64,000 nt of DNA, taken from positions 13,828,001 through 13,892,000 of the forward strand of contig NC_087250.1 in assembly GCF_037042905.1 (NCBI RefSeq), read 5' to 3'. Positions 5,072 through 61,601 of this stretch are shown here, one piece after another. The notes below the pieces were generated by a model. That model was not told the DNA's origin. It was given only the letters and a program-made list of their open reading frames with translations, and ran no database searches. This DNA is from Lytechinus pictus. Lineage: Eukaryota. Position numbers and translations under genes: made by a program. The stretch's first letter is position 1. Each line of letters begins with the position of its first letter.

Positions 5072-6113
5072 TTTTTTGTCTCGCCTGCATAGCAGAGCGA
5101 GACTAAAGGCGCCGCTTTTCCGACGGCGGCGGAGTCAACATTTTAATCTTGACCAATGTCAAGTTTTTGAAATGTCATAATAACTTAGTATTTGGACCTA
5201 GTTCATGAAACTTGGGCATAAGGGTAATCAAGTATTACTGAATATCCTGCCTGAGGTTCAGGTCACATGACGAAGGTCAAAGGTCATTTAGGGTCAATGA
5301 ACAATGAACCATGTTGGGGAATCAATATCGAAATCTTAAGGTTAAGTTTTTGAAATACCATTGCTTTTAAAGTATATAGACCTGGTTCATGAAACTTAGA
5401 CATAAAGGTGATAGTGTATCACTGAAGATCCTTCCTGAGTTTCAGGTCTCATGACCGAGGTCAAAGGTCACTTAAGGTCAACGAACTTTGACCATGATGG
5501 GGGTATATGTGGAATTGTCAGCATAACTGTCATTTTATGGATCTAGTTCATGAAACTTAGACATAAGAGAAATCAAAGTATCCCTGAACATCCTGTGCGA
5601 GTTTCAGGTCACATGACCCAGGTCAAAGGTCGTTCAGGGTCAACAAACTTTGATAATGTTGGGGGTATTTGTGGAATTGTCATCATCATAACTTTAAAGT
5701 TTATAGATCTAGTTCATGAAATTTGGGACACAAGAGTGACCATGTATCCCTGAATATCTTGTGCTTGTTTCTGGTCACATGACCAAAATCAAAGTTCATT
5801 TAGGGTCATTGAACTTTGGCCTTGTTGGGGGTATTTGTTGAATTGGTATCATAACTTAGAAAGTTTTTGGATCTACAAATGTTTTCATGATAAATAGACA
5901 TAAGGGTAATCAAGTATGAATGATTGTTTTGCACATGTCTTAGGTCACATGATCATGGTCAAAGATCATGTTAGATCAATGGACATGTATTTTATTATCA
6001 TATATGAGTGTTTTATTGTTTTAATAATTAATTAATAGCTTATTTCAAAGTCAGCACTGCTACTATATCGAATTGCGTAATGCAGGCGAGACTGCCAGAG
6101 GCGTTCCACTTGT
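5072..6113 (+). mobile_element. Helentron-associated non-autonomous element (HINE/DINE-1-like)
   Basis: T-run, subterminal IR GTCTCGCCTGCA...TGCAGGCGAGAC, 5' hairpin, (GGC)n, internal ~150-190 bp tandem repeats, CCACTTGTT end, no TSD. Confidence 0.8.
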
Positions 6114-6128
6114 TTTATTTCTTGATAG

Positions 6129-9100
6129 ATTCTGGAATCTATAGCAGCAAATACCGTGGATCACCATATGCTATTCCTCTCATCTTAGCAAGGCATCTCG
6201 ACTACCAACATGGAATAAGCAGTATATACATGCCTGCAGATGCATCAGAAGAACATATTTTGACATTCCCTAATGAAGGAATACAAGAACCTTTGAGCAA
6301 TGATGAAGTTGAGGAGCCATATGCCTGTGATCAGGGTGATAAAGAACTCAATCAAGTTGGTGATCATGTTGGAGATGCGCCGAATAGCAAAGCAAGTGAT
6401 AAAGACCATGTATGCCATCAATGTGGTAAGGCATTTAATCAATCTGGTGAACTCACAAGACATAAACTAATCCATACTGGTGAGAAACCCTATGTATGTG
6501 ACCAGTGTGGTCAAGCATTTAGTCGTAATTATCTCAAAATAATACATAAACGTATCCACACAGGTGAGAAGCCCTATGTATGTGATCAATGTCATAAGGC
6601 ATTTAGCAATCGTTATGCTCTCTCCATACATATAGGAATCCATACAGGTGAGAAACCTTATGTATGTGATCAATGTGGTAAGACATTTAGTCAATCACGT
6701 CACCTCATTACACATAAAAATATCCATACACCTAAACATATCCATACACCTGAGAAGCTCTATACGTGTGATCAATGTGGCAAGGCCTTTAATAAAAAAT
6801 GCAATCTCACAGCACATAAGCGTATCCATACAGGTGAGAAACCTTATGTATGTGATCAATGTGGTAAGGCATTTAGTCAATCAACACACCTCAGTAGACA
6901 TAAACATATCCATACACCTAAACATATCCATACACCTGACAAGCTCTATACGTGTGATCAATGTGGCAAGGCATTTAATCAGAAAGGCAATCTCACAGCA
7001 CATAAGCATATCCATACAGGTGAAAAACCTTATGTATGTAATCAATGTGGTGAGGCATTTCATCAGAAAGGCAATCTCAAAGTACATAAGCGTATCCATA
7101 CAGGTGAGAAACCTTATGTATGTGATCAATGTGGTAAGACATTTAGTCAATCACGTCACCTCATTACACATAAAAATATCCATACACCTAAACATATCCA
7201 TACACATGAGAAGCTCTATACATGTGATCAATGTGGTAAGGCCTTTAATCAAAAATGCAATCTCACAGCACATAAGCTTATCCATACAGGTGAGAAACCT
7301 TATGTATGTGATCAATGTGGTAAGGCATTTAGTCAATCAACACACCTCAGTAGACATAAACATGTCCATACACATAAACATATCCATACACCTGACAAGC
7401 TCTATACGTGTGATCAATGTGGCAAGGCATTTAATCAGAAAGGCAATCTCACAGCACATAAGCGTGTCCATACAGGTGAAAAACCTTATGTATGTAATCA
7501 ATGTGGTGAGGCATTTCATCAGAAAGGCAATCTCAAAGTACATAAGCGTATCCATACAGGTGAGAAACCTTATGTATGTGATCAATGTGGTAAGACATTT
7601 AGTCAATCACGTCACCTCATTACACATAAAAATATCCATACACCTAAACATATCCATACACATGAGAAGCTCTATACATGTGATCAATGTGGTAAGGCCT
7701 TTAATCAAAAATGCAATCTCACAGCACATAAGCTTATCCATACAGGTGAGAAACCTTATGTATGTGATCAATGTGGTAAGGCATTTAGTCAATCAACACA
7801 CCTCAGTAGACATAAACATGTCCATACACATAAACATATCCATACACCTGACAAGCTCTATACGTGTGATCAATGTGGCAAGGCATTTAATCAGAAAGGC
7901 AATCTCACAGCACATAAGCGTGTCCATACAGGTGAAAAACCTTATGTATGTAATCAATGTGGTGAGGCATTTCATCAGAAAGGCAATCTCAAAGTACATA
8001 AGCGTATCCATACAGGTGAGAAACCTTATGTATGTGATCAATGTGGTAAGACATTTAGTCAATCACGTCACCTCATTACACATAAAAATATCCATACACC
8101 TAAACATATCCATACACATGAGAAGCTCTATACATGTGATCAATGTGGTAAGGCGTTTAATAAGAAAAGCATTCTCAAAGGACATAAGCGTATTCATACA
8201 GGTGAGAAGCCGTTTGTATGTGGTCAGTGTGGTCAAGCGTTTAATCGGGAATGTAATCTAAAAGTGCATAAACAACTCCATACAGGTGAGAAGCCCTATG
8301 TATGTGATCAGTGTGGTCAAGCGTTTAATCGTAATGATCATCTCAAAATACATAGACGTAAGCATACAGGTGAGAAGCCCTATGTATGTGATCAATGTGG
8401 AAAGGCATATTATGAATCCAGTGGTCTGAGAAAACATAAACATATCCATGATGAGAAGCCCTATGTATGTAATCAATGTGGTGAGGCATTCAATACATCT
8501 AGTGATCTCAAAATACATAGACGTATCCACACAACTGAGAAACCCTTTGTATGTGATCAGTGTGGTAAAGGGTTTAGTTTTGAAAAACGTCTCACGAGGC
8601 ATAAACAGATCCATACACGTGAGAGGCAAGACAAGCAATATGAATGTGATCAATGTGGCAAGGCGTTTAATCTGAAAGGCAATCTCAAAGTACATAAGCG
8701 TATCCATACAGGTGAGAAACCTTATGTATGTGATCAATGTGGTAAGGCATTTAATCAATCAACAGCCCTCAGTGCACATAAACATATCCATAAACCCAAA
8801 CATATCCATACACCTAAACATATCCATACACATGAGAAGCTATATACATGTGATCAATGTGGTAAGGCGTTTGATAAGAAAAGCATTCTCAAAGCACATA
8901 AGCGTATTCATACAGGTGAGAAGCCGTTTGTATGTGATCAGTGTGGTCAAGCATTTAATCAGGAATGTAATCTAAAAGTGCATAAACGACTCCATACAGG
9001 TGAGAAGCCCTATGAATGTGATCAATGTGGCAAGGCGTTTAATCTGAAAGGCAATCTCAAAGTACATAAGCGTATCCATACAGGTGAGAAACCTTATGTA

Positions 9101-9715
9101 TGTGATCAATGTGGTAAGGCATTTAATCAATCAACAGCCCTCAGTACACATAAACATATCCATACACCTAAACATATCCATACACCCAAACATATCCATA
9201 CACCTAAACATATCCATACACCCAAACATATCCATACACCCAAACATATCCATACACCTAAACATATCCATACACATGAGAAGCTCTATACATGTGATCA
9301 ATGTGGTGAGGCGTTTAATAGGAAAAGCAATCTCAAAGCACATAATCGTATCCATACAGGTGAGAAGCCGTTTGTATGTGATCAGTGTGGTCAAGCATTT
9401 AATCGTAATTATCATCTCAAAATACATAGACGTAAGCATACAGGTAAGAAGCCCTATGTATGTGATCAATGTGGAAAGGCATATCATGAATCCAGTGGTT
9501 TAAAAAAACATAAACATATCCATGGTGAGAAGCCCTATGTATGTAATCAATGTGGCAAGGCCTTTAATCAGAAAGGCAATCTCACAGTACATAAGCGTAT
9601 CCATACAGGTGAGAAACCTTATGTGTGTGATCAATGTGGTAAGGCATTTAATCAATCTGGTTCCCTCAGTATACATAAACATATCCATAAACCTAAACAT
9701 ATCCATACAGGTTAG
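6129..9715 (+). CDS. C2H2 zinc-finger gene, terminal exon with 36 tandem Kruppel-type fingers
   Basis: TTTATTTCTTGATAG| acceptor, G|AT gives Asp in the ORF 6080-9715 frame; repeated CxxC-x12-H-x3-H with TGEKP linkers; stop TAG 9713-9715. Confidence 0.92.
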
Positions 9716-17526: not shown

Positions 17527-19901
17527 TATATGGGTCTTGTAGTAGTTCAGGAAAATTGGACCTAGTGGTATTCAAGTATCATTTATTATCATGTTCATCT
17601 TAAATAGCCTAGTGTATTTATGGTTAACCAAGGTTAAAAATGTATAGATCATCACAACTTTGAAAGTATATGGGTCTATTAGTAGTTCAGGAAAATTGGA
17701 CCTAAAGGTATTCAATCATTTATTATCATGTACATGTTAAATAGCCTATTGTATTTAGGGTTAACAAAGGTTAAGTTTTAGATCATCATAGCTTTGAAAG
17801 TATATGGAAAAAATTGGACCTAAAGGTATTCAAGTATCATTTATTATCATGTACATGTTAAATAGCCCAGTGTATGTAGGGTGAACCAATGTTTAGTTTC
17901 AGATCATCATAACTTTGAAAGTATATTGGTCTACTTGTCTAGTAATTCAAGAAAATTGGACCTAAAGGTATTCAAGTATCAGTTATTATCATGTACATGT
18001 TTTATGTCACCTGATTCAGGTCAAAGGTCATTTAGGGTCAGTGAACTTTGACCATGTTGTGATATTATTAAATAATGTGAAGGTGCTTTCACCTGGTGCA
18101 GAAAGTAAGTAGGATGGGGGATCGGGTGTCCGGACACTTTATATTTTTGAAGCCTTCTTTTTTGTCTTAAGATTACACTAAAAATATGAATTCAATAGTT
18201 GTAATCATCTTCTATTTTGTTCTCTATAATATAGGAGAGATTAACTTGTAAGAACTCATTCTGGTAGAGTGTTAAAGCAGTCAGAAAGGCTAGGTTTGGA
18301 AAAAGTTTTGTACTACTACTACATATATTTATTCTATTTCAAATAATGTTATTTTGTTATACTCTCATACCTCGAGTAGGGGTAAATAGAATTAATATAT
18401 TATTATTTATTAATTAATAATATATTATTTTATTTTGGAAAAAAAAATAGGGTGAGTGTTCAGTGTGTTCACATCGTTGACTATGCAAGTTAAACTGTTA
18501 AAACAGTCATATTCAAAAGTGTGAATGTGATTTCACACTGGACTCCTTTACAGTTTGAGTGGTACATTATGCTCACATAGTGGACTATGTGGAAAAGTTA
18601 AAGCTGTTAAGGTATCGTTTCACTGTATGAGCAGCTGATTTAGAAAAATTCTCAAACTATAAGATGAAACTTATGTATGAGTGCTTGAATTTGTCCTTAA
18701 AAAAAACCCTGAAACAGACCACAATTTAGGATGAAAAACTCAAATTTAGACACAAGTAGCAATTTATTAGCTTGACTTTGATGACTGTCTCTAGACGCAT
18801 TTAGGTTATGCCCAGTTTTCTCAAAATTTCAAAAGCCTGTTGGCTGTGTTGAATGCTATCTGCTGTGTGTATTTCCTATGCACACGTTATTAGCTCCACT
18901 GTACAATCAGTGTACCTTACACACAGTGTGTGTTGTAGTGAACAGATTTGCTCTCTACACATAGTCATTGAAACCAACCCCCCCCCCTGATTATTTTCAA
19001 ACTTTGGTTTACATCTCTTAAAATAGTTCCTGTAGACATGATGCTTTGAAACTTTTTGGCAGGTATTTTTACAATATAAGCCTAATGTTTAGCCCATTTC
19101 CAAGAACCAAAATTTTTAAATAAAAACAAAGTGAAATTATCACTTTAAACGATTTCTGCACTGTTGAAACGATCATTCATTAAGAGTGTGAACGTTATTT
19201 CACACTGTGGACTCCTTTGCAATACGAGTGGCACATTATGTGGGACATTATGGGTCACGTTATGGTCACATAGTGGAAAGTCAAAACTGTGTTAACGATC
19301 ACTGCGCTGTTAAAATGGCCATATTTAATAGTGTGCATGTGATTTCACACTGTGGACACTTTGATAGTGTGAGTGTTCCAAGTGTGTTCACATTGCTAGT
19401 GGACCATGATTTTAAATGTGATGTACACAGTTAAAACAATCATATTTAACAGTATGAATGTGATTTTAGACTGTGGGACACTTTCCATTGTGTGTGTTCA
19501 CATAGTGGACGATGTGATTCGCACCATTAAATGAATCAAATCTAACCGTATGACAGTGATTTCACATTGTGTTCCACACTGTGAAGACACTGTGGGACAC
19601 TATGCTTTTTCAACATGGTTGTGTTGATGTTGAGAATTTATGTCTCCTGAAATCACTGATCCCTATTGGAAATAACACAGCGTCCCACAGTCTGTGCCAC
19701 AGTGTGTTCACAGTGTAGAACAATGTAAAATCACCTTCACACTTACATTTGACCATTTGAACAGTGTGGATCACATATTCACATAGGCAACCATGATTCC
19801 CATTGGAAATGCGACCAAGACCTGCCATATCAAACACATATAACCTTTTCATTAATTTTCTTTTTTATCTCTAGCTCCTCAAAATCAGGTGTTCTTTTTA
19901 A

Positions 19902-25800: not shown

Positions 25801-26090
25801 ACTTTGAAAGTTTATGGATCTGATTCATGAAACTTTTACATAATAATAATCAAGTATCACTGAACATCCTGTGCAAGTTTAAGGTCACATGATTGAGGTC
25901 AAAGGTCATTTAGGGTCAATGAACTTTGGCCAAATTGGGGGTATTTGTTGAATTACCATCATAACTTTGAAAATGTATTGGTCTAGTTCATAAAACTTGG
26001 ACATAAGAGTAATCAAGTATCACTGAACATCCTGTGCGAATTTCAGGTCACATGACCAACGTCAAAGGTCAATGAACTTTGAACTTTGAA

Positions 26091-29000
26091 TTCCATGGAA
26101 GCCTGCATGCAACTTCAATGGAGAGAAAGCTTCGTGGTTTCCACCCTCTACCTTTGATGAAACCCAAGGCACTTCTGTTCCTGAGTGTGCTACTTCTAGC
26201 TAAATCGGGAGATATTGAGGTCAATCCTGGTCCTTGCGCACCAAAGCACCCATGCCAGATCTGCGATCGAGCTGTCACATGGAAACATAGAGCAGTTTCC
26301 TGTGATGATTGCTTACAGTGGTACCATGTGGATTGCATGCACCTGTCCAGTGCTGTCTACAATGTTTTTGGAAATTCTAATGTTTCTTGGCACTGTGTGA
26401 AATGTGGATTACCTCAATTTTCTTCGAGCCTGTTTAACAGTGCAACTCACGTGACATCAAGTAATGCATTTGACGCCCTATCATCTTTGTCGTCCTCTAA
26501 CTCTTCTCTCTCTAGTGAGCACCTATCTGAACCTGGGTCTCCCCGCGCCACATCATCTCCTGCCAGAAAGAAATGCAGAAGTCGCAAAGAAAGGGAGAAA
26601 ACTGTCTTTTCAACATTAACAATCAACTTCCAAAGCATTCAGAACAAGAAAGAGGAAGTTGGAGCACTGATAGATTCTGCCAATCCGGACATCATAATTG
26701 GAACGGAGACATGGTTAAAACCAGAAGTGCACAGTTCTGAAATATTTCCAGTGGGATACAATGTCATCAGAAGGGACCGTCAAGACAGGCCTGGTGGTGG
26801 TGTTCTCATTGCGATAAAGGACAGCCTTTCATTTCAACAACTTTCTAGTGATGTCCAATGTGAGAATGTCTTCATTAAAGTATCACTGAGTGGACGCAAA
26901 TCTCTTGTGATTGGTGCCCTGTATCGACCTCCTTCCAGTGATACTTCGTACTTAGAAGCAGTTTGCTCTCTCGTTGAGCGTATTTGTGAGCAAAATAAGA
27001 ACTCTATCATTTGGATCGGTGGAGATCTTAACTTACCAGGAATTGACTGGGAAACCCTAACTTCAGACAGTCAACGGACCCCTGCACAGCTGAGTGGACG
27101 CTTCATTGAAATGATTCATAGTTGTAACCTCCAACAGATGGTTGATTTTACAACAAGGAATGAGAATATACTCGATCTCTTCATGACTAATCGGCCTTCC
27201 TTGGTATCTGAATGCAAACCACTCCCTGGTCTAGGTGACCATGATATTGTAATGGTCTATTCCCGCATCACACCTCAACGGACTAAACCTGTTAAGCGAA
27301 AGATTTACCTCTGGAAACGAGCAGAAGTCCGTCAGATGAAAGAGAAATGCATATCCTTCAGCAAGTCCTTTACATCCAGATTTAACTCTGACAGCTCTAT
27401 CTCTGATATGTGGTTATCCATAAAATCTAATCTTCTTGATATCCAAGATCAACATGTGCCATCAAAAATGTCATCTGTGCGCTACAACCAGCCTTGGATA
27501 AATACTAAAGTGAAGCGCTTGTCATGAAGAAAGAAGCGCCAGTATACAAGGGCAAGGAGCCAAACAGGTACCGAGGAAGATTTCGAGAAATACAGAGCCC
27601 TAAAGAAAGAGTCAAGATCTGCATGTAAACAGGCATATAATGACTACATCAGGAATATCATATCTCCTGACTCGAAGAGCAACCCAAAGCGATTCTGGTC
27701 ATTTATCAAGAGTAAGAAGTGTGATACAACTGGTGTTGCTCCGTTGAAGTCATCAAATGGAATCATCCAATCTGATCGACTGCACCTCGAAGTCAAACAC
27801 TCTGAATCAACAGTTTGCATCAGTCTTTACGAAGGATGAGTGTCTCACCAACATCCCTGATAAAGGTGATAGTCCTCATCCATCCATGTGTGAAATTGAC
27901 ATTTCTCCAACTGGTGTCAATAAGCTGTTATCCGGACTTGATCCTCATAAAGCAACAGGCCCAGATGGAATTTCTGCCAGGTTACTGAAAACACTGGCTA
28001 ATGAGATTACCCCAGCGCTTACGATACTCTTCAAAGCATCTATCCATCAAGGCATTATCCCAGATGACTGGAGAAAGGCAAACGTTACTCCCGTGTTCAA
28101 GAAAGGAGATAGGAGTAATCCAGAGAACTACAGACCCATATCTCTGACATCTATCTCGTGCAAAGTCCTAGAACATGTTCTCTGCAGCTCTATTATGGAT
28201 CACCTGGATAGTAATAACCAGTGGCGTAACAGGCGGGGGGGGGCAGGGGGGGCAAGTTGCCCCCCCTGGCGGATTTCACCGGGAAAATAAAAGAAAAACG
28301 GGAAAAAGAAAAAAAAAGAGGGAGAAAGAAAGGGAAAGGGGAAGGAAAGGGGAAAAGGAAAGGAGGAAAAGGAAAGGGAAAAGTGAAAAGAAAACGAAGA
28401 AAAACACTTTTTTTAAATGGAAAAGGAAGGAAAGCGGAAAAATGTACGAAAGAAAAACATATGAGAAAGAGCAAATCATTCCGAAATAGGCCTATGTAAT
28501 GCAATAGCAGAGTGGGAAACAAATTAAAAGATGACAAAATGGCAAACAATTGCGGGAAACGAAGGTAGAATGTAATTAGTCAAAAGCTAATGGACTGCAT
28601 ACAACATTGTGCTTTAAGCTTGCTAAATGTTATGCAATTAAGCTACCGGGGCTTTGCCCCAGACCCCACGCAGTAGGGGCTCTTCATTTATAACATTCAT
28701 CTATAACGCCCCCCGTTCAATCACTGGCAGACAGGCGGGGGGGTCTTGGATCCACACCCAAAAGGAAATAAAATAAATTATAGGAGACAACGTATAATGA
28801 AATGAATGGAAACAATAAAAGGTGTTATTTGCTGAATATAATGGAAAAATCTATCACATAATTAGAATTTAATTACAATGGGCATTTTTTTTCCAGCTCG
28901 CTTTGCACGCTGGCGACTTTTTACAAATTTTTCCCACATTGCAATGTTTTGCTCCCTCAAAATATTTGGTTCATTACGCAACTGGGTTGAATAAATGTGT

Positions 29001-33224: not shown

Positions 33225-33507
33225 ATGAATGGTAATAAAATGGCTGAAAATGGATCAGAAACCTCAGACATCAGTCAGACTTCAGATCAAATTAAGGAAG
33301 ATCAAGATGAGGAAAAACAAGATCAAGAAGAAGAAGAAGAAGAAGATGAAGTCCTCCCTGAAAAGGTGACGTCACCAGCAGGAGGGGAATCAGATAATTC
33401 TATCCTGCCTCGACGGTCCAGTCTTATCAAGGATTCAGCTAAGAAAAAGCCACGTAAAAAGACGGTTTCATTCTCGAGTTTTCCTGAAGAAAGGCCAATT
33501 TCAAAAG
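33225..33507 (+). CDS. PLCL2: Inactive phospholipase C-like protein (PRIP/PLCL1-2 type), exon 1
   Basis: PRRSSLIKD...RKKTVSFSS matches the N-terminal PP1-binding region of vertebrate PLCL1/2; donor AAAG|GTAAAT, phase 1. Likely co-ortholog of PLCL1 and PLCL2. Confidence 0.85.
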
Positions 33508-33977
33508 GTAAATGAAAATTTAAATTACCGGTAGGCCTAGATCTAGATTATATTAAGTCTTAACGTGTCGTTAGGCCTAGATCTAGGCTAATTTTATTTT
33601 GTCACCATCATTATCCATAAACGAAGACTGTTGAAAAGCGATTAACATTAGTTGCGCTTGCCAATTACAATGGCATACCAGATTTCTTTGGCAGAACTTG
33701 CATGCAACGGGCCGGGATGGCGGGTGAATTTTTGGATTGTTAAATGTTTTTTTTAGAAAGATCTATTATTGTTGGAAGTTTGTTTTGTCAGTTCAGTTTT
33801 GAATTGTTTCTGCACTATTTACATTCTGCAGTGGCCAGTGTACATGTAACTGTAAGAAACGTTTAACATACCAGGTACCGTTAGTGTGTTATCATTAAAA
33901 TGGGCCTACCGGTACATGTATATTACAAGACTACACTGCACAGAATGTTGCATTATGGGTTAGGAACATGGTCTGCA

Positions 33978-41679: not shown

Positions 41680-41829
41680 CATCTGATTGTCTGTCAATAA
41701 TGGAAGCTGGAAGTGAATTAGTGAAAGTAAGATCTCCCTCGAGACAATACAATCGTTTCTTTGCTCTAAGTGAAGACAGGTCCGAGCTTCGATGGCATTC
41801 ATCTTCAAAGAAACCAGAAAAAGCAAGAA
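41680..41829 (+). CDS. PLCL2: PLCL exon 2 (PH domain N-half)
   Basis: TTACAG| ASDCLSIMEAGSELVKVRSPSRQYNRFFALSEDRSELRWHSSSKKPEKAR |GTAAGT; phase 1-1; PLC PH-domain signature. Confidence 0.92.
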
Positions 41830-42545: not shown

Positions 42546-42752
42546 TTTCTGTTGAGAGTATAAAGGAAGTACGACTGGGGAAGACGACCGAGATGTTCAG
42601 GTCTCAAAACATGGCCATGGATTTCCCTGAAGATTGCGCGTTTTCTGTGATATTTGGTGAATCTTACGAGACTCTGGATCTGGTAGCTGCCACACCAGAC
42701 GAAGCCAATATATGGGTGACTGGTTTGTCTTATCTTATAGGAGGAAACACAA
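42546..42752 (+). CDS. PLCL2: PLCL exon 3 (PH domain C-half)
   Basis: TTTCAG| ISVESIKEVRLGKTTEMFRS...EDCAFSVIFGESYETLDLVAATPDEANIWVTGLSYLI |GTAAGT; phase 1-1. Confidence 0.93.
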
Positions 42753-44606: not shown

Positions 44607-44646
44607 CACCAGAAGCTATAGAAAGGAATCAAGAATTACGAGATTC
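44607..44646 (+). CDS. PLCL2: PLCL exon 4 (40-bp exon followed by a U12 donor)
   Basis: TTTCAG| (T)PEAIERNQELRD(S) |ATATCCTTTT; the phases bridge exon 3 and the exon at 48020 exactly. Confidence 0.85.
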
Positions 44647-44926
44647 ATATCCTTTTCATTTTCATCATTGTTTCATGTAGGTGTATTTGTATCACATATT
44701 ATTGACATACAGTGTTTATTTATATTCAGTCCAGATTTTCTGCCTTTAGGGACGGAGGGGGCGGGGGCGGGGGCGGGGGAGGGGTGGGAGCTTGTGGTTC
44801 CATTTGTGGTGCTGCTCTTGAATAGATGATTGATTTGATTATCAGAGTGATGATTAAGATGTGAAAAATGACATTAATTTTCTTGACTGTATGCAGATTC
44901 TTTCATAATGGTGAGAGATACATCAG

Positions 44927-45243
44927 GGGCCTGTTTCATTAGGAGTTACAACTTGTAACTTTGCCATTATGGCAACTACCATGGCAACAGGTCTCAGCAG
45001 CCAATCATAATCACAGTTACCATGTTAGTTGCCATAATGAATGGCAAATTTACAACAGTTGCAACTCATTGTGAAACAGGCCCCAGGGCTCCGTAACACA
45101 AAGGTTTACGATGGATTGCAAATATGAAAGAACCGTACTCATTGGCTCCCAGTCAGTATTTTAAACATAGTGCGCATGCAATGATGATCTTGATTGGTCA
45201 TTGGTATTTAGCGATTAATTGCAAACCTTTGTGTTACGGAGCC
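44927..45243. mobile_element. Two different small MITEs sharing CAG TSDs
   Basis: CAG|GGGCCTGTTTCA..TGAAACAGGCCC|CAG|GGCTCCGTAACACAAAGG..CCTTTGTGTTACGGAGCC|CAG. Confidence 0.8.
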
Positions 45244-46442
45244 CAGGTGTGTTTTTGAAGCGCCCCCTGCCCTAGTCTGGTGTGTGAACCCTTCGCTCCA
45301 GTTAGGAGTCTGAATGTGCAGCCTACTCATGCCTTGTGTACTGATGGCTCTCTCGCTCAATTGAAACAGCAATTTTCAAATGTGCTAGTCTTTGTGTGGA
45401 AACCCACTTGTTGATCAAATTTTTAATCAGGGTCTGTGCCTGCCCCACCTTATAGGACACTCGCTCATTGCTGGCAATGGTGTTGACACCAACACCATCA
45501 CTATTTATAGCAACACCGTGCTGCTATAAACTATTATTTATTACTTTATAGCAGCACAGTGTTGCTATAAAGTATTAAATAGTGATGGTGTTGGGTGTTT
45601 GTGGTGGTGTTTCTGTTAATAGAGAGGGCTATCATTGGTGTTTCTGTTAATAGTGTTAATAGTGATGGTGTTGGTGTCAGTGTTTGTGTTTAAAAGACAT
45701 GATCACAGTTTGACAGCCGAATGACCAAGTTTGGCATTAATAATGATTGTGATTATTTTCTTGCATGATTGACATCTATGTGTTTGATGATGCACCCTTG
45801 ATGAGAAGGTCAATTAATCTCACATGTTGGGAAATATGTTTTTTAAGCCCTCTGTACCCCATATTTTGCTGCCTAATTGGATTATTAATATGGTGATAAT
45901 GTTGTTGTGAATAATGATAATCATGCCTTTAATTTGGTATCTCACATTGATCCCCACCTTTCATTACATGTACACATGAATGTACATACATGTAGATTAT
46001 CATTATGACATACCATGCCTGGCAACTGTCAATGTTTAAATAGGGACAGTCCCAAATTTTTGTAGAAAGAGAGAGAGAGAGTCACTTAAACCACAGTGTA
46101 CGTGTCCTGGTGAAAAATCTGTAGACCTGAACTATATCAATAGGAACCCCCGGCAAAAGTCCTGATTTTCAGCCATTGTCTTCCCGTATGCCCCATTTTC
46201 TCAAGTTTCAGGGTTGGCAGGTACATGTATGTTATGGTGATAATGATATTGATTTCCTTTATGATTTCATTATTTAATCATGGTTGATGTTAGATAAATC
46301 AGTGGGTAATGTATGGTGATGAAGATGATGATTCTTTAATCAATTACATGTACATGTATCTCACTTGGTTGGAATGTATATGCATGTTTAATACAGGTAC
46401 AGGTGATCATGGTCATGATGTTGATTTCCTTGACTCGATTAA

Positions 46443-46951
46443 AGGGGAAGTTCACCCTGACAAAAACTTTGTAAAAATAACAGAAAAAATAATGAAAAAT
46501 ATTGGTAAAGGTTTGAGGAAAATGCATAAATGATGAAAGAGAGATATTAGAATTTCAAGTTTTTTATTTGTGATGTCATAAACAACCAGAGCTCTGCCCC
46601 ATATGTTACATGTACAGTACGTAATATAAAATGCATAAATTTCATTTTTTTAATGGTTCGTAATGACTTATTTTTTATTTTCTTTTAAGGAGCGGGTGGG
46701 AAATTATTTTTCTATTGATATACTGAATGTACAATTCAAACCATTTTCAATTTTCAGAGAAAATGGCATTTCATTGATTTTTTACCATTCGATATGTAAG
46801 CTGCTCGCATATGACGTCACAAATTGAATAATTAAAATGTTAATAACTTTTTTATTCTTTGATGGATTTTCCTCAAACCTCGCCAATATTTTTAAATTAT
46901 TTTTTCTGCTATTTTTGAAATAAACTTTCTCAGTCAGGGTGAACTTCCTCT
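46443..46951. mobile_element. Kolobok-like TTAA MITE
   Basis: TTAA|AGGGGAAGTTCACCCTGAC ... GTCAGGGTGAACTTCCTCT|TTAA. Confidence 0.85.
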
Positions 46952-47186
46952 TTAAACTCACATGGTTGAGAAATGTTTAATAATGCACCCTTGATGAGAT
47001 GATGATAATGATGATGATATTAATTTCCTTGACTTTAGTTACCAATCTCACATGGTTGAGATATGTTTAATAATGCACCCTTGATAAGATGATGATGATA
47101 GTGATGTTGATATTGGTGGTGGTGGTGATGATGTTATTGTTGTTGATGATGATGGTATTAGTTTACTTGACTTTTTTAATAGTTAA

Positions 47187-47757
47187 AGTGATCATTTCAC
47201 TTTGTTCTGATTTAAAAAATTCTCCTTTTGGTTCCTGAAAATGGGCTAAACATTAGGCTTATAGTGTAAAAATACCATCCCAAAAGTTTCAAAGTATTAT
47301 ATTTACAGGATCAATTTAAAAACCTAGGAGATGTAAACCAAAGTTTGAAATAATTGGGAGTTGGTTTCAATGACTATATGTATACAGGGATTCTGTGCAC
47401 CACAACACATTAATTCTAGATGAAAACAGCATTACCTACATACAGTGTGTACAAGGTATACACTGAATATACAGTGCAGCTAATAGTGTGTGTATAGGAG
47501 ATACACACAACAGAATGCAGTCAAAATAGCCAACGGACTTTTTGAATTGGAGAAAACTGGTCATAAGCTGAACCCGTCTACTAGACGGTTCTCAAAATCA
47601 GGCTAATAAATTGCTACTTGTATCTAAATTAGAGTTTTTCATCCTATATTGTGGTCTGTTTCAGGGTTTTTGAGGACAAATACAGGCACTCATACGCACG
47701 TTTCAACTCAGTTTGAGAAATTTTTAAATCAGCTGCTCACAAAGTTAAACGATCCCT
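47187..47757. mobile_element. Kolobok-like TTAA MITE (different family; relatives at ~18600-19150 and 61221-61601)
   Basis: TTAA|AGTGATCATTTCACTTTG ... CAAAGTTAAACGATCCCT|TTAA. Confidence 0.8.
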
Positions 47758-48019
47758 TTAAATCTCACATGGTTGGGAGATATGTTTAACAAAGCAGCTG
47801 GTGATTTGATGATATTGATATGAATGTGATGATGATGATAATGTTGGTGATATTGATTTCTTTGACTTCAGGAGTTAAATCTCACATGGTTGAGAGATAC
47901 ATGTATGTTCAACAAAGCAGCGGGTGATTTGATGATATTGATATGAATGTGATGATGATTATGTTGATGATGATGATAATGATGATTATATTAATTTCCT
48001 TGACTCAATTAAATCTCAC

Positions 48020-48149
48020 ATGGTTGAGAGATATGTTTAACAAAGCAGCTGGTGATTCATTAGGTCAGTTGGATGAATGTGAAGTTATGCAGCTCATGAA
48101 GAAACTTAACAATGGTGTCGCCTCAACTCGGATTAGACACAAGTTTAGG
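48020..48149 (+). CDS. PLCL2: PLCL exon 5 (first EF-hand-like region); no further exon recognised in the window
   Basis: WLRDMFNKAAGDSLGQLDECEVMQLMKKLNNGVASTRIRHKFR |GTAAGT; matches the PLC EF-hand start (W...F...). Confidence 0.88.
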
Positions 48150-49469
48150 GTAAGTCCTTATCTTATCAATGATATAATATTGCCAAGTAGTACTGATTTT
48201 CAGTTATCAGTACTGAAATTGAAACAAAATATTGCTTGTTTCATTAAAAATAATGATTTCTGAAGTTTTTTAATTCATGTGTTTTGTGGTATTTATTTGA
48301 AAATACTGATTTCCTCACCAAAATACTGATATTCAGCTTTTGAAATACTGAAATGTTCTTGTGCAGTTTGGCATCTCTGCAATATCCCCTATTCACAGTT
48401 GTTACTGCACATGAGCAGTAAAAGGTCATTCAAGGTAAACAAAATGGTCTTCAAATTCACTGATGCATCCATGATTGGATGATTATTCATGTAGGCCTAT
48501 ACTATGCTTTTCACACTGTAGTACAGAACGTTCATGAGGTAAAGCTTAGCCCACTTTGGTTTCACACTAGGTTTTTAAAGTGGACTAGCAATATATTGGT
48601 ACGGTACTATCTGTCTTGCCCTGCTAAAAAGCAGGGTTAGCCGGCTTATTGCGGTGCTAAGAACCGCAGTGTGAAACCAAACCGGGCTTAGGAAAAGTGG
48701 GGCTAAGCATTAGCCAATTACAGAAGTGGAAATTGCATGTTAATCATGCTCTGTGTTGCAAAATCATCAATATTCATGAGCTGTGCGACAGTCAGGGGTT
48801 AAGTGCTCGGATGTGTGATACAGGTATATTTTTAGCCCGGAGCATCCCTTTATTAAAAAGTGATCATACAGATATCATACAATGTCCCTGCACTGATACG
48901 GTATGCTCTATCATGGGATCAAATTGAATTCCAGTCTAGTGTAGAAAGCCTGGTAAAATAGAACTTATACATGTAGTTTTGGGGGCCATGAGGCCGTTCT
49001 CATTATGCTTTCTAAAACTAGTTTACTGGAATCCGATTCAAAAAACCAATTTGGAAGATCGCTTTGCTAGCGTTCCCACTTGATCATACGAAAGTGGTTT
49101 TCAAAATCATTTCACGATCTTGTTGCTTGTTGCTAACTCCCAATGCACCGCATGTACCATGTACAGATATACTTGAAATATCAGTGGTTAGTGAAATCTT
49201 GTGTCATACAGTCAGACCAGTATTCAACGTTAGTACCAGTATATTTCAGCATGGGTTTGCATTGGAAATTTTATACCTCTTGAAATTAAAGGGAAACATA
49301 TCCCCAAGCTCAATCTCGTAATTGGTCTAGGCTTTATAACAGATTCCAGGTCAAGGTCTCTGTCTATATCTTGGGCACATTTCAATATGCACAAATGATG
49401 AACAAATAAAAAGGGACATCTTTAATACGTACATTCAAGATGCGGATGGAAAATATGCAGGGGCGTGGG

Positions 49470-57518: not shown

Positions 57519-58077
57519 TGCTGTGCAACTACTTTCTTTTTGATACCTGAAATGTGTTTTATTTGATTGGCTGCCTGATAAAATACAAAACACCTTCTCA
57601 AGTATGGATTGGGCTAAAAACTTCAGGATTAACTATTGATGCTCAAACAGGAGTTTAAAATGAAATGAAAAATGTTACCAAGAAAGGGTTCTTTATTTAA
57701 ATTGAAATACATGTACTAAGGGCTGGACAATTTTAAAATTCTAGGTAAAAAAATGCATTCAATGACTTCTACGCTTTTGTATTGTCCGTTGATACTTAAG
57801 TATATTAGTTCACACTACTGATCGTTTACCAAAGTTTTAGACAGGCTTTTGATATTTTGATTAAAGTATGAAGGAGAGAGCACATAATATGAGCAGTGCT
57901 TGTATGCTCACACAATGCTCTCTATGGTCCCTATGCAACAAAAAGTGCAGGAAATAAAGGTCAATACATGTACATGCTATGCATGCTACTCTACATGTAC
58001 AGTATGCTGATCACATTGCAAATAGTCTATTGAGGTTCTGTTCAAGCCAGACCCCATGCTTCATTGAAACATATATT

Positions 58078-58532
58078 GATTATGATGACGATGATGATGG
58101 TGATGATGGTGATGATGATGGTGATGATGATGATGATGATGATGGTGATGATGATGGTGATGATGGTGATGATGATGGTGGTGATGATGGTGATGCTGAT
58201 GATGCTGATGATGAGTCTGTTGATAATGTTGATGGTAATGATGATGATGATGATGACGATGGTAATGATGATGATATTGATGATGATGGTGATGATAATG
58301 ATAATGATGGTGATGATGATGATGGTGATGATGATGGTGATGATGATGATGCTGATGATGCTGATGATGATGATGCTGATGATGAGTCTGTTGATAATGT
58401 TGATGGTAATGATGATGATGACGATGCTAATAATGATGATGATATTGATGATGATGGTGAATGATGATGACAGTGATGTTGATGATGCTGATCATATTGA
58501 TGATGATGATGATGATAACGATGATGGTGATA
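58078..58532. repeat. (GAT)n compound microsatellite with an internal duplication
   Basis: GAT/GGT/GCT triplets; GAGTCTGTTGATAATGTTGATGGTAAT occurs twice. Confidence 0.95.
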
Positions 58533-58873
58533 TTGGGTACTACATGTAAGTTTGAAGATTAATGTGCCTTTTCTTGTACTTTATAGTTTATACATTTACC
58601 TAGTGTTTTTGCTGTTTTCCATTAAACACCTTGAGCAAAATCAAAAATGGAAAAGATGCTATATAAATCCTACATTTTATTATTATTATTATTATCATTA
58701 TTATTATATTATTATGTGCATTATTTATACACAAGTGGTGCCATATTCACTGTAACCATCCAAATAAAAAAAAATTGGGGGGCTACTTTTCACAACTTAC
58801 TGTTGTTTCAGGGAATAAGTTTCCTGGTATCACATTGCAATTTGCTCCACATTTTTTAAAGACTGCTACACAA

Positions 58874-60643: not shown

Positions 60644-61220
60644 CATTCCAATGAATTTCAAGGAAGTACTGCACATGGGTGGAGAGTGGCAAATGTAGAC
60701 ATGTGCCTCTCCAATGGACACAAGTGCTGAGATTTTAACCATGGATCTAGTGGTTCAAATTCCAGAGACTTATCCTCTGAGCCGTAACACTTTTAAACAC
60801 TAGAGTGTGAATACTATATATACTGTATTAACCATACAAATATTTGATTTGATCTGATTTATTAATTTTCACATTTCAATAACAAAAGTATATACAAGGG
60901 TAATCATTTTTTTTTCTTAGCATAACATAACAATAAGCAAATGACGTAATTAATAACAAATGCATATATGCAATTTAATTGAAATATATTTATACCTGAT
61001 AAATTTCTTTTTTTTAATTATATAAACAAATAGCAGAATTTTTTTTTATATATATACATATATCGAAATAATACATTTTAAGCTTAGAGCTTGAAATGGA
61101 TAAAGGCCTCAAAGGGAAAGGGGAATGAAAATCAGACAAACAGTGCAATAAAAGAGACTTATCTTTTTTTGCACAAAATAGGAATATTACCAAAAAAGTA
61201 GATAGAGAAAGAAAAATTAA

Positions 61221-61601
61221 AGGTATTGTTTAACTCTGTGAGCAGCCGATTTAAAAAATTCTCAAACCAAGATGAAACATGTGTACAAGTGCATGTATTA
61301 GAACTAATAAACCCTGAAAACAACCATTATTGAGAATGAAAAGCTAAAACTACAAGGCAAACCCCGATTTTGTAAATAGGCGTCTTATAGACGCCTAAAT
61401 AGTACACATAAGTGTATGGGATGAAATTAAGATGGTGTTTTCGGTCACTTTATATTTCAATTTTTGAAGCACTAAATAATTATTTACGAACGCAATTTTT
61501 TCTGGGCTTCATTTTTGTAACATATCACACACACAGGTGACAAGTGTGACCTTCTAGCTCAGATTTTTAAAAGTCAAATCAATGTTTAATAACCAATCAC
61601 T
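61221..61601. mobile_element. Kolobok-like TTAA MITE
   Basis: TTAA|AGGTATTGTTTAACTCTGTGAGCAGC ... AACCAATCACT|TTAA. Confidence 0.7.

What the first reader, a model, noticed from the sequence alone, without database searches (positions are those of the whole stretch)
45757..48050. Array of seven duplicated U12 branch-point/AC acceptor cassettes, with only the last in frame
Seen: the unit [TTCCTTGAC - spacer - TCTCAC|ATGGTTGAG.. + (GAT)n] recurs with AC ends at 45823, 46364, 46961, 47051, 47768, 47885 and 48019, becoming more diverged upstream. Only 48019 opens the EF-hand frame. The copy at 47025-47051 keeps a perfect branch point at a normal distance and would read W-L-R-Y-V-stop. The copy at 47858 has a C>T branch-point change, and the others are disrupted in or near the spacer. 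Established: U12 3' site choice is set mainly by the branch point and a short distance to the AC. Inference: these are either serial duplications whose upstream decoys were purged, or a tunable decoy/poison-acceptor system for a minor intron. I know of no described equivalent.
Basis: partly seen in the sequence, partly recalled or inferred. Interest (0 to 1): 0.86.

Follow-up and report, generated by a model that had tools for sequence, protein, structure and literature searches.

The report
Duplicated minor-intron acceptor copies, PLCL gene
The end of an ancient minor-class (AT-AC) intron in a sea-urchin-like PLCL gene, together with the start of the next exon, has been copied head-to-tail about ten times, leaving a row of mostly broken pseudo-acceptors that look like duplication debris and not like a regulatory device.

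Summary
The + strand carries a PLCL (inactive phospholipase C-like) gene. Its 40-nt exon (44607-44646) is followed by a textbook AT-AC intron (44647-48019) and then the EF-hand exon (48020-48149). The intron's last ~30 nt plus the first 38 nt of the exon, joined by GAT-rich microsatellite, recur head-to-tail. Every upstream AC gives an early stop. Two copies are split by TTAA-flanked MITEs inserted in the branch-point-to-AC spacer. Others have mutated branch points or longer spacers. Divergence rises upstream only roughly, so the array is a mosaic. The same AT-AC intron is in 14 of 22 homologous metagenome loci that cover the junction, and none has duplicated acceptors. Same-species RNA covers the exons, with no depth in unique intron bins and no excess over the last decoy, but junction rows were not displayed. 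Best reading (0.75): microsatellite-driven tandem duplication across an intron-exon boundary, with decaying pseudo-acceptors. A regulated poison-acceptor system has no support (~0.1). The copies at 47051 and 47885 remain plausible weak acceptors.

The parts
44607..44646 (+). 40-nt PLCL mini-exon (…PEAIERNQELRDS), upstream exon of the AT-AC intron; ends in phase 2
   Evidence: tblastn to P0002 and in-frame join to 48020
44647..44655 (+). U12-type AT-AC donor ATATCCTTT
   Evidence: the same 9-mer begins the homologous intron in 14 of 14 loci
44647..48019 (+). AT-AC intron, 3373 nt, holding the whole array and the TE insertions
44873..44925 (+). Oldest relic copy: ATTAATTTTCTTGAC, spacer, TCAT in place of TCAC, then AATGGTGAGAGATACAT; followed by a TE block
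   Evidence: (D1, D20)
44926..45700 (+). Block of nested inverted-repeat dispersed repeats separating the relic from the rest of the array
   Evidence: I2, I4-I7, I10; very high depth in the DNA contigs
45767..45823 (+). Partial unit (exon-like tail of the older type, no branch point) ending in TCTCAC at 45823
   Evidence: (D9, D10)
45824..45945 (+).
46210..46280 (+). Degenerate unit: exon-like head with ACATGT-type insertion, GAT-rich part, TTCCTTTAT, AC lost
   Evidence: (D1, D12)
46281..46364 (+). Unit with degenerate branch site TTCTTTAAT 25 nt from AC 46364
46365..46961 (+). Unit whose perfect TTCCTTGAC (46426-46434) is separated from its AC (46960-46961) by MITE1; the distance before insertion was 15 nt
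   Evidence: (I8)
46443..46951 (.). MITE1: palindromic element with 23-nt terminal inverted repeats, flanked by TTAA (46439-46442 and 46952-46955)
   Evidence: I1, I3, I8; depth far above single copy
46962..47051 (+). 90-nt unit with perfect TTCCTTGAC (47025-47033) 19 nt from AC 47051; its use would read SWLRYV-stop
47052..47768 (+). Unit with TTACTTGAC (47163-47171) and a long spacer, split from AC 47768 by MITE2; the distance before insertion was 23 nt
47187..47757 (.). MITE2: TTAA-flanked element (TSD 47183-47186 and 47758-47761); a 77% identical copy at 18609-19148 (-) is also TTAA-flanked
   Evidence: (I15)
47769..47885 (+). 117-nt unit: exon-like 38 nt 97% identical to the exon, TTCTTTGAC (47858-47866) 20 nt from AC 47885
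   Evidence: (D7, D11)
47886..48019 (+). 134-nt last unit: exon-like part with a 6-nt insertion, GAT-rich part, then the functional branch site TTCCTTGAC (47996-48004) 16 nt from the functional AC (48018-48019)
48020..48149 (+). EF-hand exon (WLRDMFNKAAGDSLGQLDECEVMQLMKKLNNGVASTRIRHKFR), followed by GTAAGT

Best explanation
This is a local tandem-duplication array, like a minisatellite, that straddles the 3' end of an ancient AT-AC (U12-type) intron of a PLCL gene. The repeated unit runs from the first 38 nt of the EF-hand exon, through a GAT-rich microsatellite, to the branch site, spacer and TCTCAC. The exon copy breaks off at GGTGATT, which itself looks like the GAT/GGT microsatellite. The most likely engine (inferred) is therefore misaligned exchange or replication slippage between that exon motif and the intronic microsatellite, repeated several times and sometimes moving two units at once. 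Only the last copy is continuous with the rest of the exon, so it is the real acceptor. Every upstream copy is a pseudo-acceptor whose use would give a premature stop. These copies are decaying. Two were cut off from their AC by TTAA-targeting MITEs, and others carry branch-site substitutions, lost ACs or lengthened spacers. The two that still look usable (47051, 47885) have branch-to-AC distances of 19-20 nt. That is outside the 9-18 nt seen in the homologous intron elsewhere, and they lie far from the downstream GT donor that could support exon definition. The array therefore most likely does nothing useful. It is tolerated because the authentic site out-competes the copies.
For: Gene and intron: PH and EF-hand exons match PLCL proteins. 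P0002 reads …ELRDS|WLRDMF… across the 44646|48020 join. The donor is ATATCCTTT and the branch site is TTCCTTGAC, 16 nt from AC.

Age of the intron: 14 of 22 homologous metagenome loci that cover this junction have an AT-AC intron at the same position and phase. Several of these loci are near-identical to one another.

Array: the junction 15-mer occurs 5 times against 0.11 expected. Units lie head-to-tail and all on the + strand. The unit is absent elsewhere in the window. Divergence is graded but mosaic.

Decay: both MITEs have terminal inverted repeats and TTAA duplications, and a second TTAA-flanked family member lies at 18609-19148. Branch-site and spacer states are listed. All upstream ACs give stops within 5 to 55 codons after the junction serine (5-19 for the four nearest the exon).

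Not a conserved device: 0 of 14 homologous introns have a second acceptor copy at up to 6 mismatches of 24.

RNA (same-species stranded runs X21 and X22): estimated exon depth is about 2-40. Depth is 0 to 0.09 in the three unique intron bins 45632-46303. Bin 47872-48095 (last decoy plus 76 nt of exon) has depth 2.13 and 4.43, which is no more than the exon part alone predicts from the next bin (3.35 and 5.55).
Against: No junction reads for this intron were displayed (848 joints not shown, and the table is filled by TE joints). Neither the canonical join nor decoy use was seen directly in this species. Depth is low and NMD would remove decoy products, so use below roughly 10% cannot be excluded.

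The 47051 copy keeps a perfect branch site and AC.

The TTCTTTGAC of the 47885 copy resembles TTCTTTAAC/T, the working branch site in 4 homologous loci, so it is not clearly dead.

Branch-site core and AC-junction columns are among the best conserved across six cassettes. Against this, ATGTTTAA, which has no known splicing role, is equally conserved.

Both MITEs landed in the AC-proximal spacer TTAA. There are 5 such sites among 30 TTAA in the TE-stripped intron, so the chance is about 0.03. That hints at selection for disabling copies, which means the copies were not wholly neutral.

The microsatellite-mediated mechanism is inferred from the breakpoint sequence only.
Confidence: 0.75

Rival explanations
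1. Regulated decoy or poison-acceptor system. The upstream cassettes are kept because U12 snRNP binding or splicing at them diverts part of the pre-mRNA into stop-containing, NMD-degraded forms, or slows authentic splicing. This would tune PLCL output to minor-spliceosome activity.
For: Two copies keep usable-looking signals: 47051 has a perfect branch site at 19 nt, and 47885 has a wobble-type variant at 20 nt. All decoys give early stops. Branch-site core and AC junction are among the best conserved columns. A precedent exists for tandem U12 signal repeats acting with NMD, the USSE (passage in PMC3584512). Selection of the U12 3' site is described as error-prone, and cryptic U12 3' sites are used when a branch site is weakened.
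Against: None of the 14 homologous AT-AC introns has such copies. Most copies are visibly broken (MITEs, lost AC, lost branch site). No RNA depth lies in unique sequence downstream of the older ACs, and there is no excess over the last decoy. Conservation is not specific to the signals. The copy nearest the exon is the one with both a branch-site change and a lengthened spacer, which is what selection against use would produce.
Confidence: 0.1
2. Assembly artefact: the array, or part of it, was produced or inflated by mis-assembly of a repeat-rich, heterozygous region.
For: The region is rich in microsatellite and high-copy TEs. No DNA run of the same species with good coverage was available to confirm it. 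In the related organism's DNA contigs, the laid piece begins at 48056 and bin 47872-48095 has low depth.
Against: The units differ from each other by many substitutions and indels, at 60-97% identity. They carry two different MITEs, each with its own target duplication. Stutter or haplotype duplication would give near-identical copies.
Confidence: 0.05
3. The reverse direction: the exon start was captured from a pre-existing intronic or dispersed repeat, so the copies are the source and not the product.
For: The repeated unit and the exon share 38 nt. Older-looking copies lie upstream.
Against: The peptide encoded by those 38 nt (WLRDMFNKAAGD) is conserved in PLCL of other echinoderms and beyond: P0002 has WLRDMFNKAAGD and P0004 has WLQEMFEKAAG. 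The exon boundary is shared by 14 distant loci that lack the repeat. The unit is not found elsewhere in the window.
Confidence: 0.02

Closest known systems
Tandem genomic duplication across an exon-intron boundary (intron gain or intron sliding by tandem duplication; PMC2891723 and PMC4974935, seen only as search listing and start of abstract)
   Same: A short head-to-tail duplication includes a splice junction. One copy of the duplicated exon piece becomes intronic, and reading frame is preserved because only one junction copy is used.
   Different: Here the duplication lengthens an existing AT-AC (U12) intron and does not create a GT-AG one. It has happened many times in series (about ten units) and carries the U12 branch site with it, so each event adds a full pseudo-acceptor.
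USSE: tandem repeat of U12-type 5' splice sites in U11-48K and U11/U12-65K transcripts (passages of PMC3584512)
   Same: Tandemly repeated U12 splice signals inside a gene. In the USSE they bind the U11/U12 di-snRNP and lead to NMD-sensitive isoforms.
   Different: The USSE repeats the 5' splice site, activates an upstream U2-type 3' site, and is conserved from plants to animals. Here the repeat is branch site plus AC. ATATCCTT occurs once in the gene region, and the copies are absent from 14 homologous loci.
JNK exon 6 duplication with a hybrid U12/U2 intron (passage of PMC1874599)
   Same: Duplication of an exon together with part of an adjoining U12 intron, leaving duplicated splice signals in series.
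   Different: In JNK, whole exons were duplicated and both are used in a mutually exclusive way. Here only 38 nt of the exon was copied, and every upstream copy is out of frame or stops.
Cryptic U12-type 3' splice sites activated by branch-site mutation (WDFY1 minigene, passage of PMC1874599)
   Same: This shows that the U12 spliceosome, once anchored at the 5' site, can pick other branch site and 3' site pairs. That is the way the decoys here could be used.
   Different: Those cryptic sites are chance sequences revealed by mutation. Here they are true paralogues of the authentic site.
AS-NMD poison exons and acceptors (general knowledge, recalled)
   Same: Use of any upstream AC would give a premature stop upstream of further exon junctions.
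   Different: Known poison elements are usually conserved and demonstrably used. Neither was shown here.

Membership tests
U12-type AT-AC intron | 5' splice site /ATATCCTT (consensus recalled) | tested here: met
   ATATCCTTT at 44647-44655 directly after the in-frame exon end
U12-type AT-AC intron | Branch site matching TCCTTRAC (consensus recalled) a short distance upstream of a terminal AC. The optimum is 11-13 nt according to PMC3584512. | tested here: met
   TTCCTTGAC at 47996-48004, with the branch A 16 nt from the last intron base. The homologous introns range from 9 to 18 nt.
U12-type AT-AC intron | Position and type conserved in homologues | tested here: met
   14 of 22 homologous loci covering the junction have ATATCCTTT…AC at the same codon phase; 8 have no intron there
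U12-type AT-AC intron | Removal depends on the minor spliceosome, with spliced junction reads | not testable with these tools
   Junction rows for this intron were not displayed. The join is supported only by homologous proteins.
Tandem-duplication (minisatellite-like) array | Head-to-tail copies of one unit on one strand, confined to one locus | tested here: met
   Units of 81-142 nt after TE removal, all on the + strand, between 44873 and 48057, with none elsewhere in the 64 kb
Tandem-duplication (minisatellite-like) array | Copy-number variation between individuals or haplotypes | not tested
   No well-covering DNA run of the same species was listed
USSE-like U12 regulatory repeat | Tandem U12-type 5' splice-site motifs | tested here: not met
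   ATATCCTT occurs once on the + strand of the gene region. The repeats are branch site plus AC.
USSE-like U12 regulatory repeat | Deep conservation of the repeat | tested here: not met
   0 of 14 homologous introns carry a second acceptor cassette
AS-NMD poison acceptor | Alternative site gives a premature stop upstream of an exon junction | tested here: met
   All seven upstream ACs give stops within 5 to 55 codons after the junction serine. The exon is followed by a GTAAGT donor at 48150.
AS-NMD poison acceptor | Alternative site is actually used in RNA | tested here: inconclusive
   No depth in 45632-46303 and no excess in 47872-48095. Against that, depth is low, junctions were not shown and NMD was not blocked.
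TTAA-targeting MITE (piggyBac-like target preference; family assignment recalled) | Terminal inverted repeats, TTAA target duplication, multiple genomic copies | tested here: met
   TIRs I8 and I15. TTAA on both sides of both elements and of the copy at 18609-19148. Depth is hundreds to thousands of times single copy in the DNA contigs.

The most novel reading that the evidence does not exclude
The cassettes at 47051 and 47885, and before the MITE insertions those at 46961 and 47768, are kept as genuine U12 branch-site and AC decoys. They would titrate or mis-direct the U11/U12 di-snRNP on this pre-mRNA. PLCL output would then be set by competition among paralogous minor-intron acceptors and NMD, with array length and MITE insertions acting as evolutionary tuning knobs. 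This would be a 3'-side counterpart of the USSE.
Probability: 0.1. Interest if true: 0.8.

Novelty: new variant of a known kind. Interest (0 to 1): 0.35.

Why it matters
Minor introns are thought to allow almost no alternative splicing, because the branch site and a short fixed distance dictate the 3' site. Here nature has placed up to eight paralogous branch-site/AC cassettes behind one AT-AC donor. They vary in graded ways: a perfect site at 19 nt, a wobble variant at 20 nt, and sites separated from their AC by about 500-600 nt of MITE. That is a ready-made allelic series for asking how the U12 spliceosome chooses among competing 3' sites in vivo, and how far exon definition and distance protect the authentic one. 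It also documents a way for minor introns to grow, by serial microsatellite-mediated duplication across the intron-exon boundary. It shows too how TTAA-targeting MITEs can neutralise pseudo-acceptors. If the copies are inert, as I think most likely, the finding is an instructive curiosity and not a new mechanism.

Tried and rejected
1. Whole-genome access: none is held for this window.

2. Sequencing runs: no RNA holder was listed by the index, and all shares were small (0.16 or less). I laid three raw RNA runs and one DNA-contig run. The joint table was filled by TE-derived joints (848 not shown), so no junction for 44646|48020 or for any decoy was displayed.

3. Related loci: the 43-aa EF-hand exon was too short as a query. 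The PH exon found 63 metagenome loci but no echinoid orthologue (best 65% identity), so the array's presence in sister species could not be tested. An exact 23-mer scan of viral contigs found nothing.

4. Earlier findings of this scan: nothing by place, words or sequence.

5. Longer exon copy: the idea that the duplicated exon piece extends beyond 38 nt (a shared ATGAATGTGA at nearly the same offset) was not significant. 28 and 36 of 500 shuffles reached the score.

6. Selection on decoy signals: the idea that signals are preserved more than flanks did not hold up. The conservation profile shows ATGTTTAA equally conserved, and the divergence sits in the microsatellite-adjacent tail and the indel-prone spacer.

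7. Literature: searches for a described U12 acceptor array returned no such case (minor intron / tandem duplication / decoy / cryptic splice site; tandem duplication / intron-exon boundary / splice acceptor). A search for PLCL1 or PLCL2 together with minor-intron terms listed no paper holding either gene name among the 10 shown.

8. Recursive-splicing reading, rejected: the decoy junctions read AC|ATGGTT, not AC|ATATCC.
Full report
**What is there.** The window is AT-rich animal DNA (GC 0.29-0.43). Its + strand carries a PLCL gene (inactive phospholipase C-like protein).
- tblastn of the best named homologue, P0002 (1046 aa), places exons at 33240-33509, about 41680-41829, 42546-42752, 44607-44646 and 48020-48149. 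Pfam sees the PH domain in the second and third of these.
- The 40-nt exon ends at 44646 and is followed by ATATCCTTT.
- The next exon is preceded by TTCCTTGAC (47996-48004), a 15-nt spacer, and the terminal AC at 48018-48019.
- Joining 44646 to 48020 gives …ELRDS-WLRDMFNKAAGDSLGQLDE…, which is what P0002 reads.
- The other introns seen here are GT-AG with GTAAGT donors.
- The consensus motifs I compare with (ATATCCTT, TCCTTRAC) are recalled. The 11-13 nt optimum for branch site to 3' site distance is from passages of PMC3584512.

**The intron is ancient.** A scan of metagenome contigs with the PH exon returned 63 PLCL-like loci.
- 22 of them cover the junction in question.
- In 14 of these the exon starts at the same tryptophan, and the intron begins ATATCCTTT and ends in AC, in the same phase, with a TCCTTRAC-like element 9-18 nt upstream.
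- In the other 8 the coding sequence is continuous, so there is no intron at this position.
- Several of the 14 are near-identical to each other, so they stand for perhaps nine lineages.
- None of the 14 has a second copy of its acceptor, scored as up to 6 mismatches of 24. The window scored five by the same test.

**The array.**
- The 15-mer TCTCACATGGTTGAG with up to 2 mismatches occurs five times between 46956 and 48028, against 0.11 expected.
- Self-comparison shows head-to-tail units, all on the + strand, between 44811 and 48057 and nowhere else in the window, apart from plain GAT microsatellite at 58055-58550.
- A unit consists of the first 38 nt of the exon (through GGTGATT), a GAT-rich stretch of variable length, ATTTCCTTGAC, a spacer containing TTAAA, and TCTCAC.
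- I count the functional cassette plus the following. Clear units end at 47885, 47768, 47051, 46961 and 46364. A degenerate unit has lost its AC (46210-46280). A partial unit ends at 45823. A relic at 44873-44925 lies just 230 nt behind the donor.
- Whether the exon copy originally extended beyond 38 nt could not be shown.

**State of each copy**.

| AC end | Branch site | Branch A to last intron base | Result if used |
|---|---|---|---|
| 48019 (functional) | TTCCTTGAC | 16 nt | open EF-hand frame |
| 47885 | TTCTTTGAC | 20 nt (spacer has 4 extra bases) | stop after 19 codons |
| 47768 | TTACTTGAC | 23 nt before MITE2, about 600 nt now | stop |
| 47051 | perfect TTCCTTGAC | 19 nt | S-W-L-R-Y-V-stop |
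| 46961 | perfect TTCCTTGAC | 15 nt before MITE1, about 530 nt now | stop |
| 46364 | TTCTTTAAT | 25 nt | stop |
| 45945 | none convincing | - | stop |
| 45823 | none convincing | - | stop |

- The four ACs nearest the exon (46961, 47051, 47768, 47885) give stops 5 to 19 codons after the junction serine. The older ones give stops after 10 codons (45945), 23 (45823) and 55 (46364).
- The 'disruptions' are two MITEs with terminal inverted repeats and TTAA target duplications (46443-46951 and 47187-47757, I8 and I15).
- MITE2 has a 77% identical, likewise TTAA-flanked copy at 18609-19148 on the other strand.
- Both elements have depths hundreds to thousands of times single copy in the DNA contigs laid.
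- Both inserted into the homologous TTAA of the branch-site-to-AC spacer. Five of the 30 TTAA sites in the TE-stripped intron are of that kind, so the chance is about 0.03. This is a weak hint that insertions which disable a pseudo-acceptor are the ones that persist.

**History.** Divergence from the functional copy rises upstream only roughly.

| Unit starting at | Exon-like part, identity to the exon | Branch-site/AC part, identity to the functional one |
|---|---|---|
| 47886 | 82% | (this is the functional one) |
| 47769 | 97% | 81% |
| 47052 | 72% | 71% |
| 46962 | 75% | 83% |
| 46365 | 66% | 89% |
| 46281 | 62% | 58% |

- The best match in the branch-site/AC part is in the MITE1-split unit, 1 kb upstream.
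- A 6-nt ACATGT-type insertion after GAGAGAT is shared by the units at 44908, 46210, 46365 and 47886 but not by their neighbours (D12 and D20, 30, 47). This suggests that pairs of units were sometimes copied together.
- This is the mosaic expected from repeated unequal exchange in a tandem array, not simple one-by-one addition.
- The exon copy ends in GGTGATT and runs straight into GAT/GGT microsatellite. I therefore infer misalignment between that exon motif and the intronic microsatellite as the engine. This step is inference.

**RNA**.
- Two stranded raw RNA runs of 'organism B' (X21, X22) match the exons with zero differences in their cleanest reads. They are heterozygous for the window's allele at 42643 and 48129, so they are the window's species. 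'Organism A' differs at several exon sites.
- Converting bin means to exon depth gives about 15-22 (X21) and 21-42 (X22) for exons 2 and 3, 2 and 11 for the mini-exon, and 13 and 21 for the part of the EF-hand exon in bin 48096-48300.
- The three unique intron bins 45632-46303 have depth 0, 0.09, 0 (X21) and 0, 0, 0 (X22). Transcripts spliced to 45823 or 45945 are therefore not seen.
- Bin 47872-48095 holds the last decoy unit and 76 nt of exon. Its depth is 2.13 and 4.43, no more than the exon share alone predicts. Stable RNA that includes 47886-48019 would result from use of any upstream AC, and it is not evident.
- Limits: depth is low, NMD was not blocked, and other bins are swamped by TE reads. 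The joint table did not show any junction of this intron (848 joints not shown). The canonical join therefore rests on protein homology, not on reads.

**Are the remaining decoys dead?** Not demonstrably.
- TTCTTTAAC/T, a close relative of the 47885 copy's variant, is the working branch site in four homologous loci.
- 19-20 nt is only just beyond the 9-18 nt range of the homologous introns.
- Passages in PMC3584512 and PMC1874599 say that U12 3' site choice is error-prone and that cryptic U12 3' sites are used when a branch site is weakened.
- Against use: the authentic site is 130 nt from a GTAAGT donor, so exon-definition contacts (described in the PMC3584512 passages) would favour it. The 47051 copy would define a 1.1-kb exon.
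- Across six cassettes the branch-site core and AC junction are well conserved, but so is ATGTTTAA, and the variable parts are the indel-prone spacer and the microsatellite-adjacent tail. I therefore do not read this as selection on the signals.

**Verdict.** The best explanation is serial tandem duplication across the 3' boundary of a conserved AT-AC intron, leaving pseudo-acceptors in various states of decay (confidence 0.75). A regulated poison-acceptor system is possible but unsupported (about 0.1). An assembly artefact is unlikely given the divergent units and two distinct MITEs (about 0.05). My literature searches found no described array of duplicated U12 acceptors. The nearest described things are intron gain or sliding by tandem duplication, the USSE repeat of U12 5' sites, and the JNK exon-6 duplication. 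I rate it a new variant of a known kind, of moderate interest as a natural allelic series for U12 3' site choice.

Noticed in passing
window 46443-46951 and 47187-47757; also 18609-19148 (-) and 61217-61345 (-): Two different TTAA-flanked MITEs sit in homologous TTAA sites of two array units. The MITE2 family has a further full-length TTAA-flanked copy and a partial copy elsewhere in the window.
   Followed up: partly
loci L010, L015-L017, L021, L023, L025, L029, L031, L033, L034, L052, L053, L055 versus L007, L035, L037, L038, L041-L043, L048: The AT-AC intron before the WL… exon of PLCL is shared by 14 distant metagenome-borne animal loci and is absent, with continuous coding sequence, in 8 others. 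This is a clean case of deep minor-intron conservation with lineage-specific loss.
   Followed up: partly
protein P0001: A 155-aa database protein, 95% identical in the PH exon, reads …LIGGNR|NMFNKAAG…. It skips the mini-exon and the first codons of the EF-hand exon. This looks like a gene model that could not handle the AT-AC intron.
   Followed up: no
window 44754-44784: A (GGGGGC)n / G-rich tract lies about 110 nt downstream of the U12 donor. Its role, if any, is unknown.
   Followed up: no
window 6032-9712 (+): Open frame of 1227 aa made of about 24 C2H2 zinc fingers. Neighbouring frames show the same periodic repeat.
   Followed up: partly
window 26076-27524 (+): Open frame of 483 aa with a PHD finger and an endonuclease domain of the endonuclease/reverse-transcriptase type, probably a non-LTR retrotransposon fragment.
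   Followed up: partly
window 57958-58550 (+): Long GAT/GGT-type microsatellite that stays open as an Asp/Gly-rich frame of 168 aa with no Pfam match. It has the same repeat flavour as the joint of the array units.
   Followed up: no
window 48056-48265 (table 8, record 8): In the related organism's DNA contigs, the piece covering the EF-hand exon begins at 48056, right after the 38 nt shared with the decoys, and bin 47872-48095 has low depth. This might mean the relative also has repeated copies of the exon start, or simply divergence.
   Followed up: no
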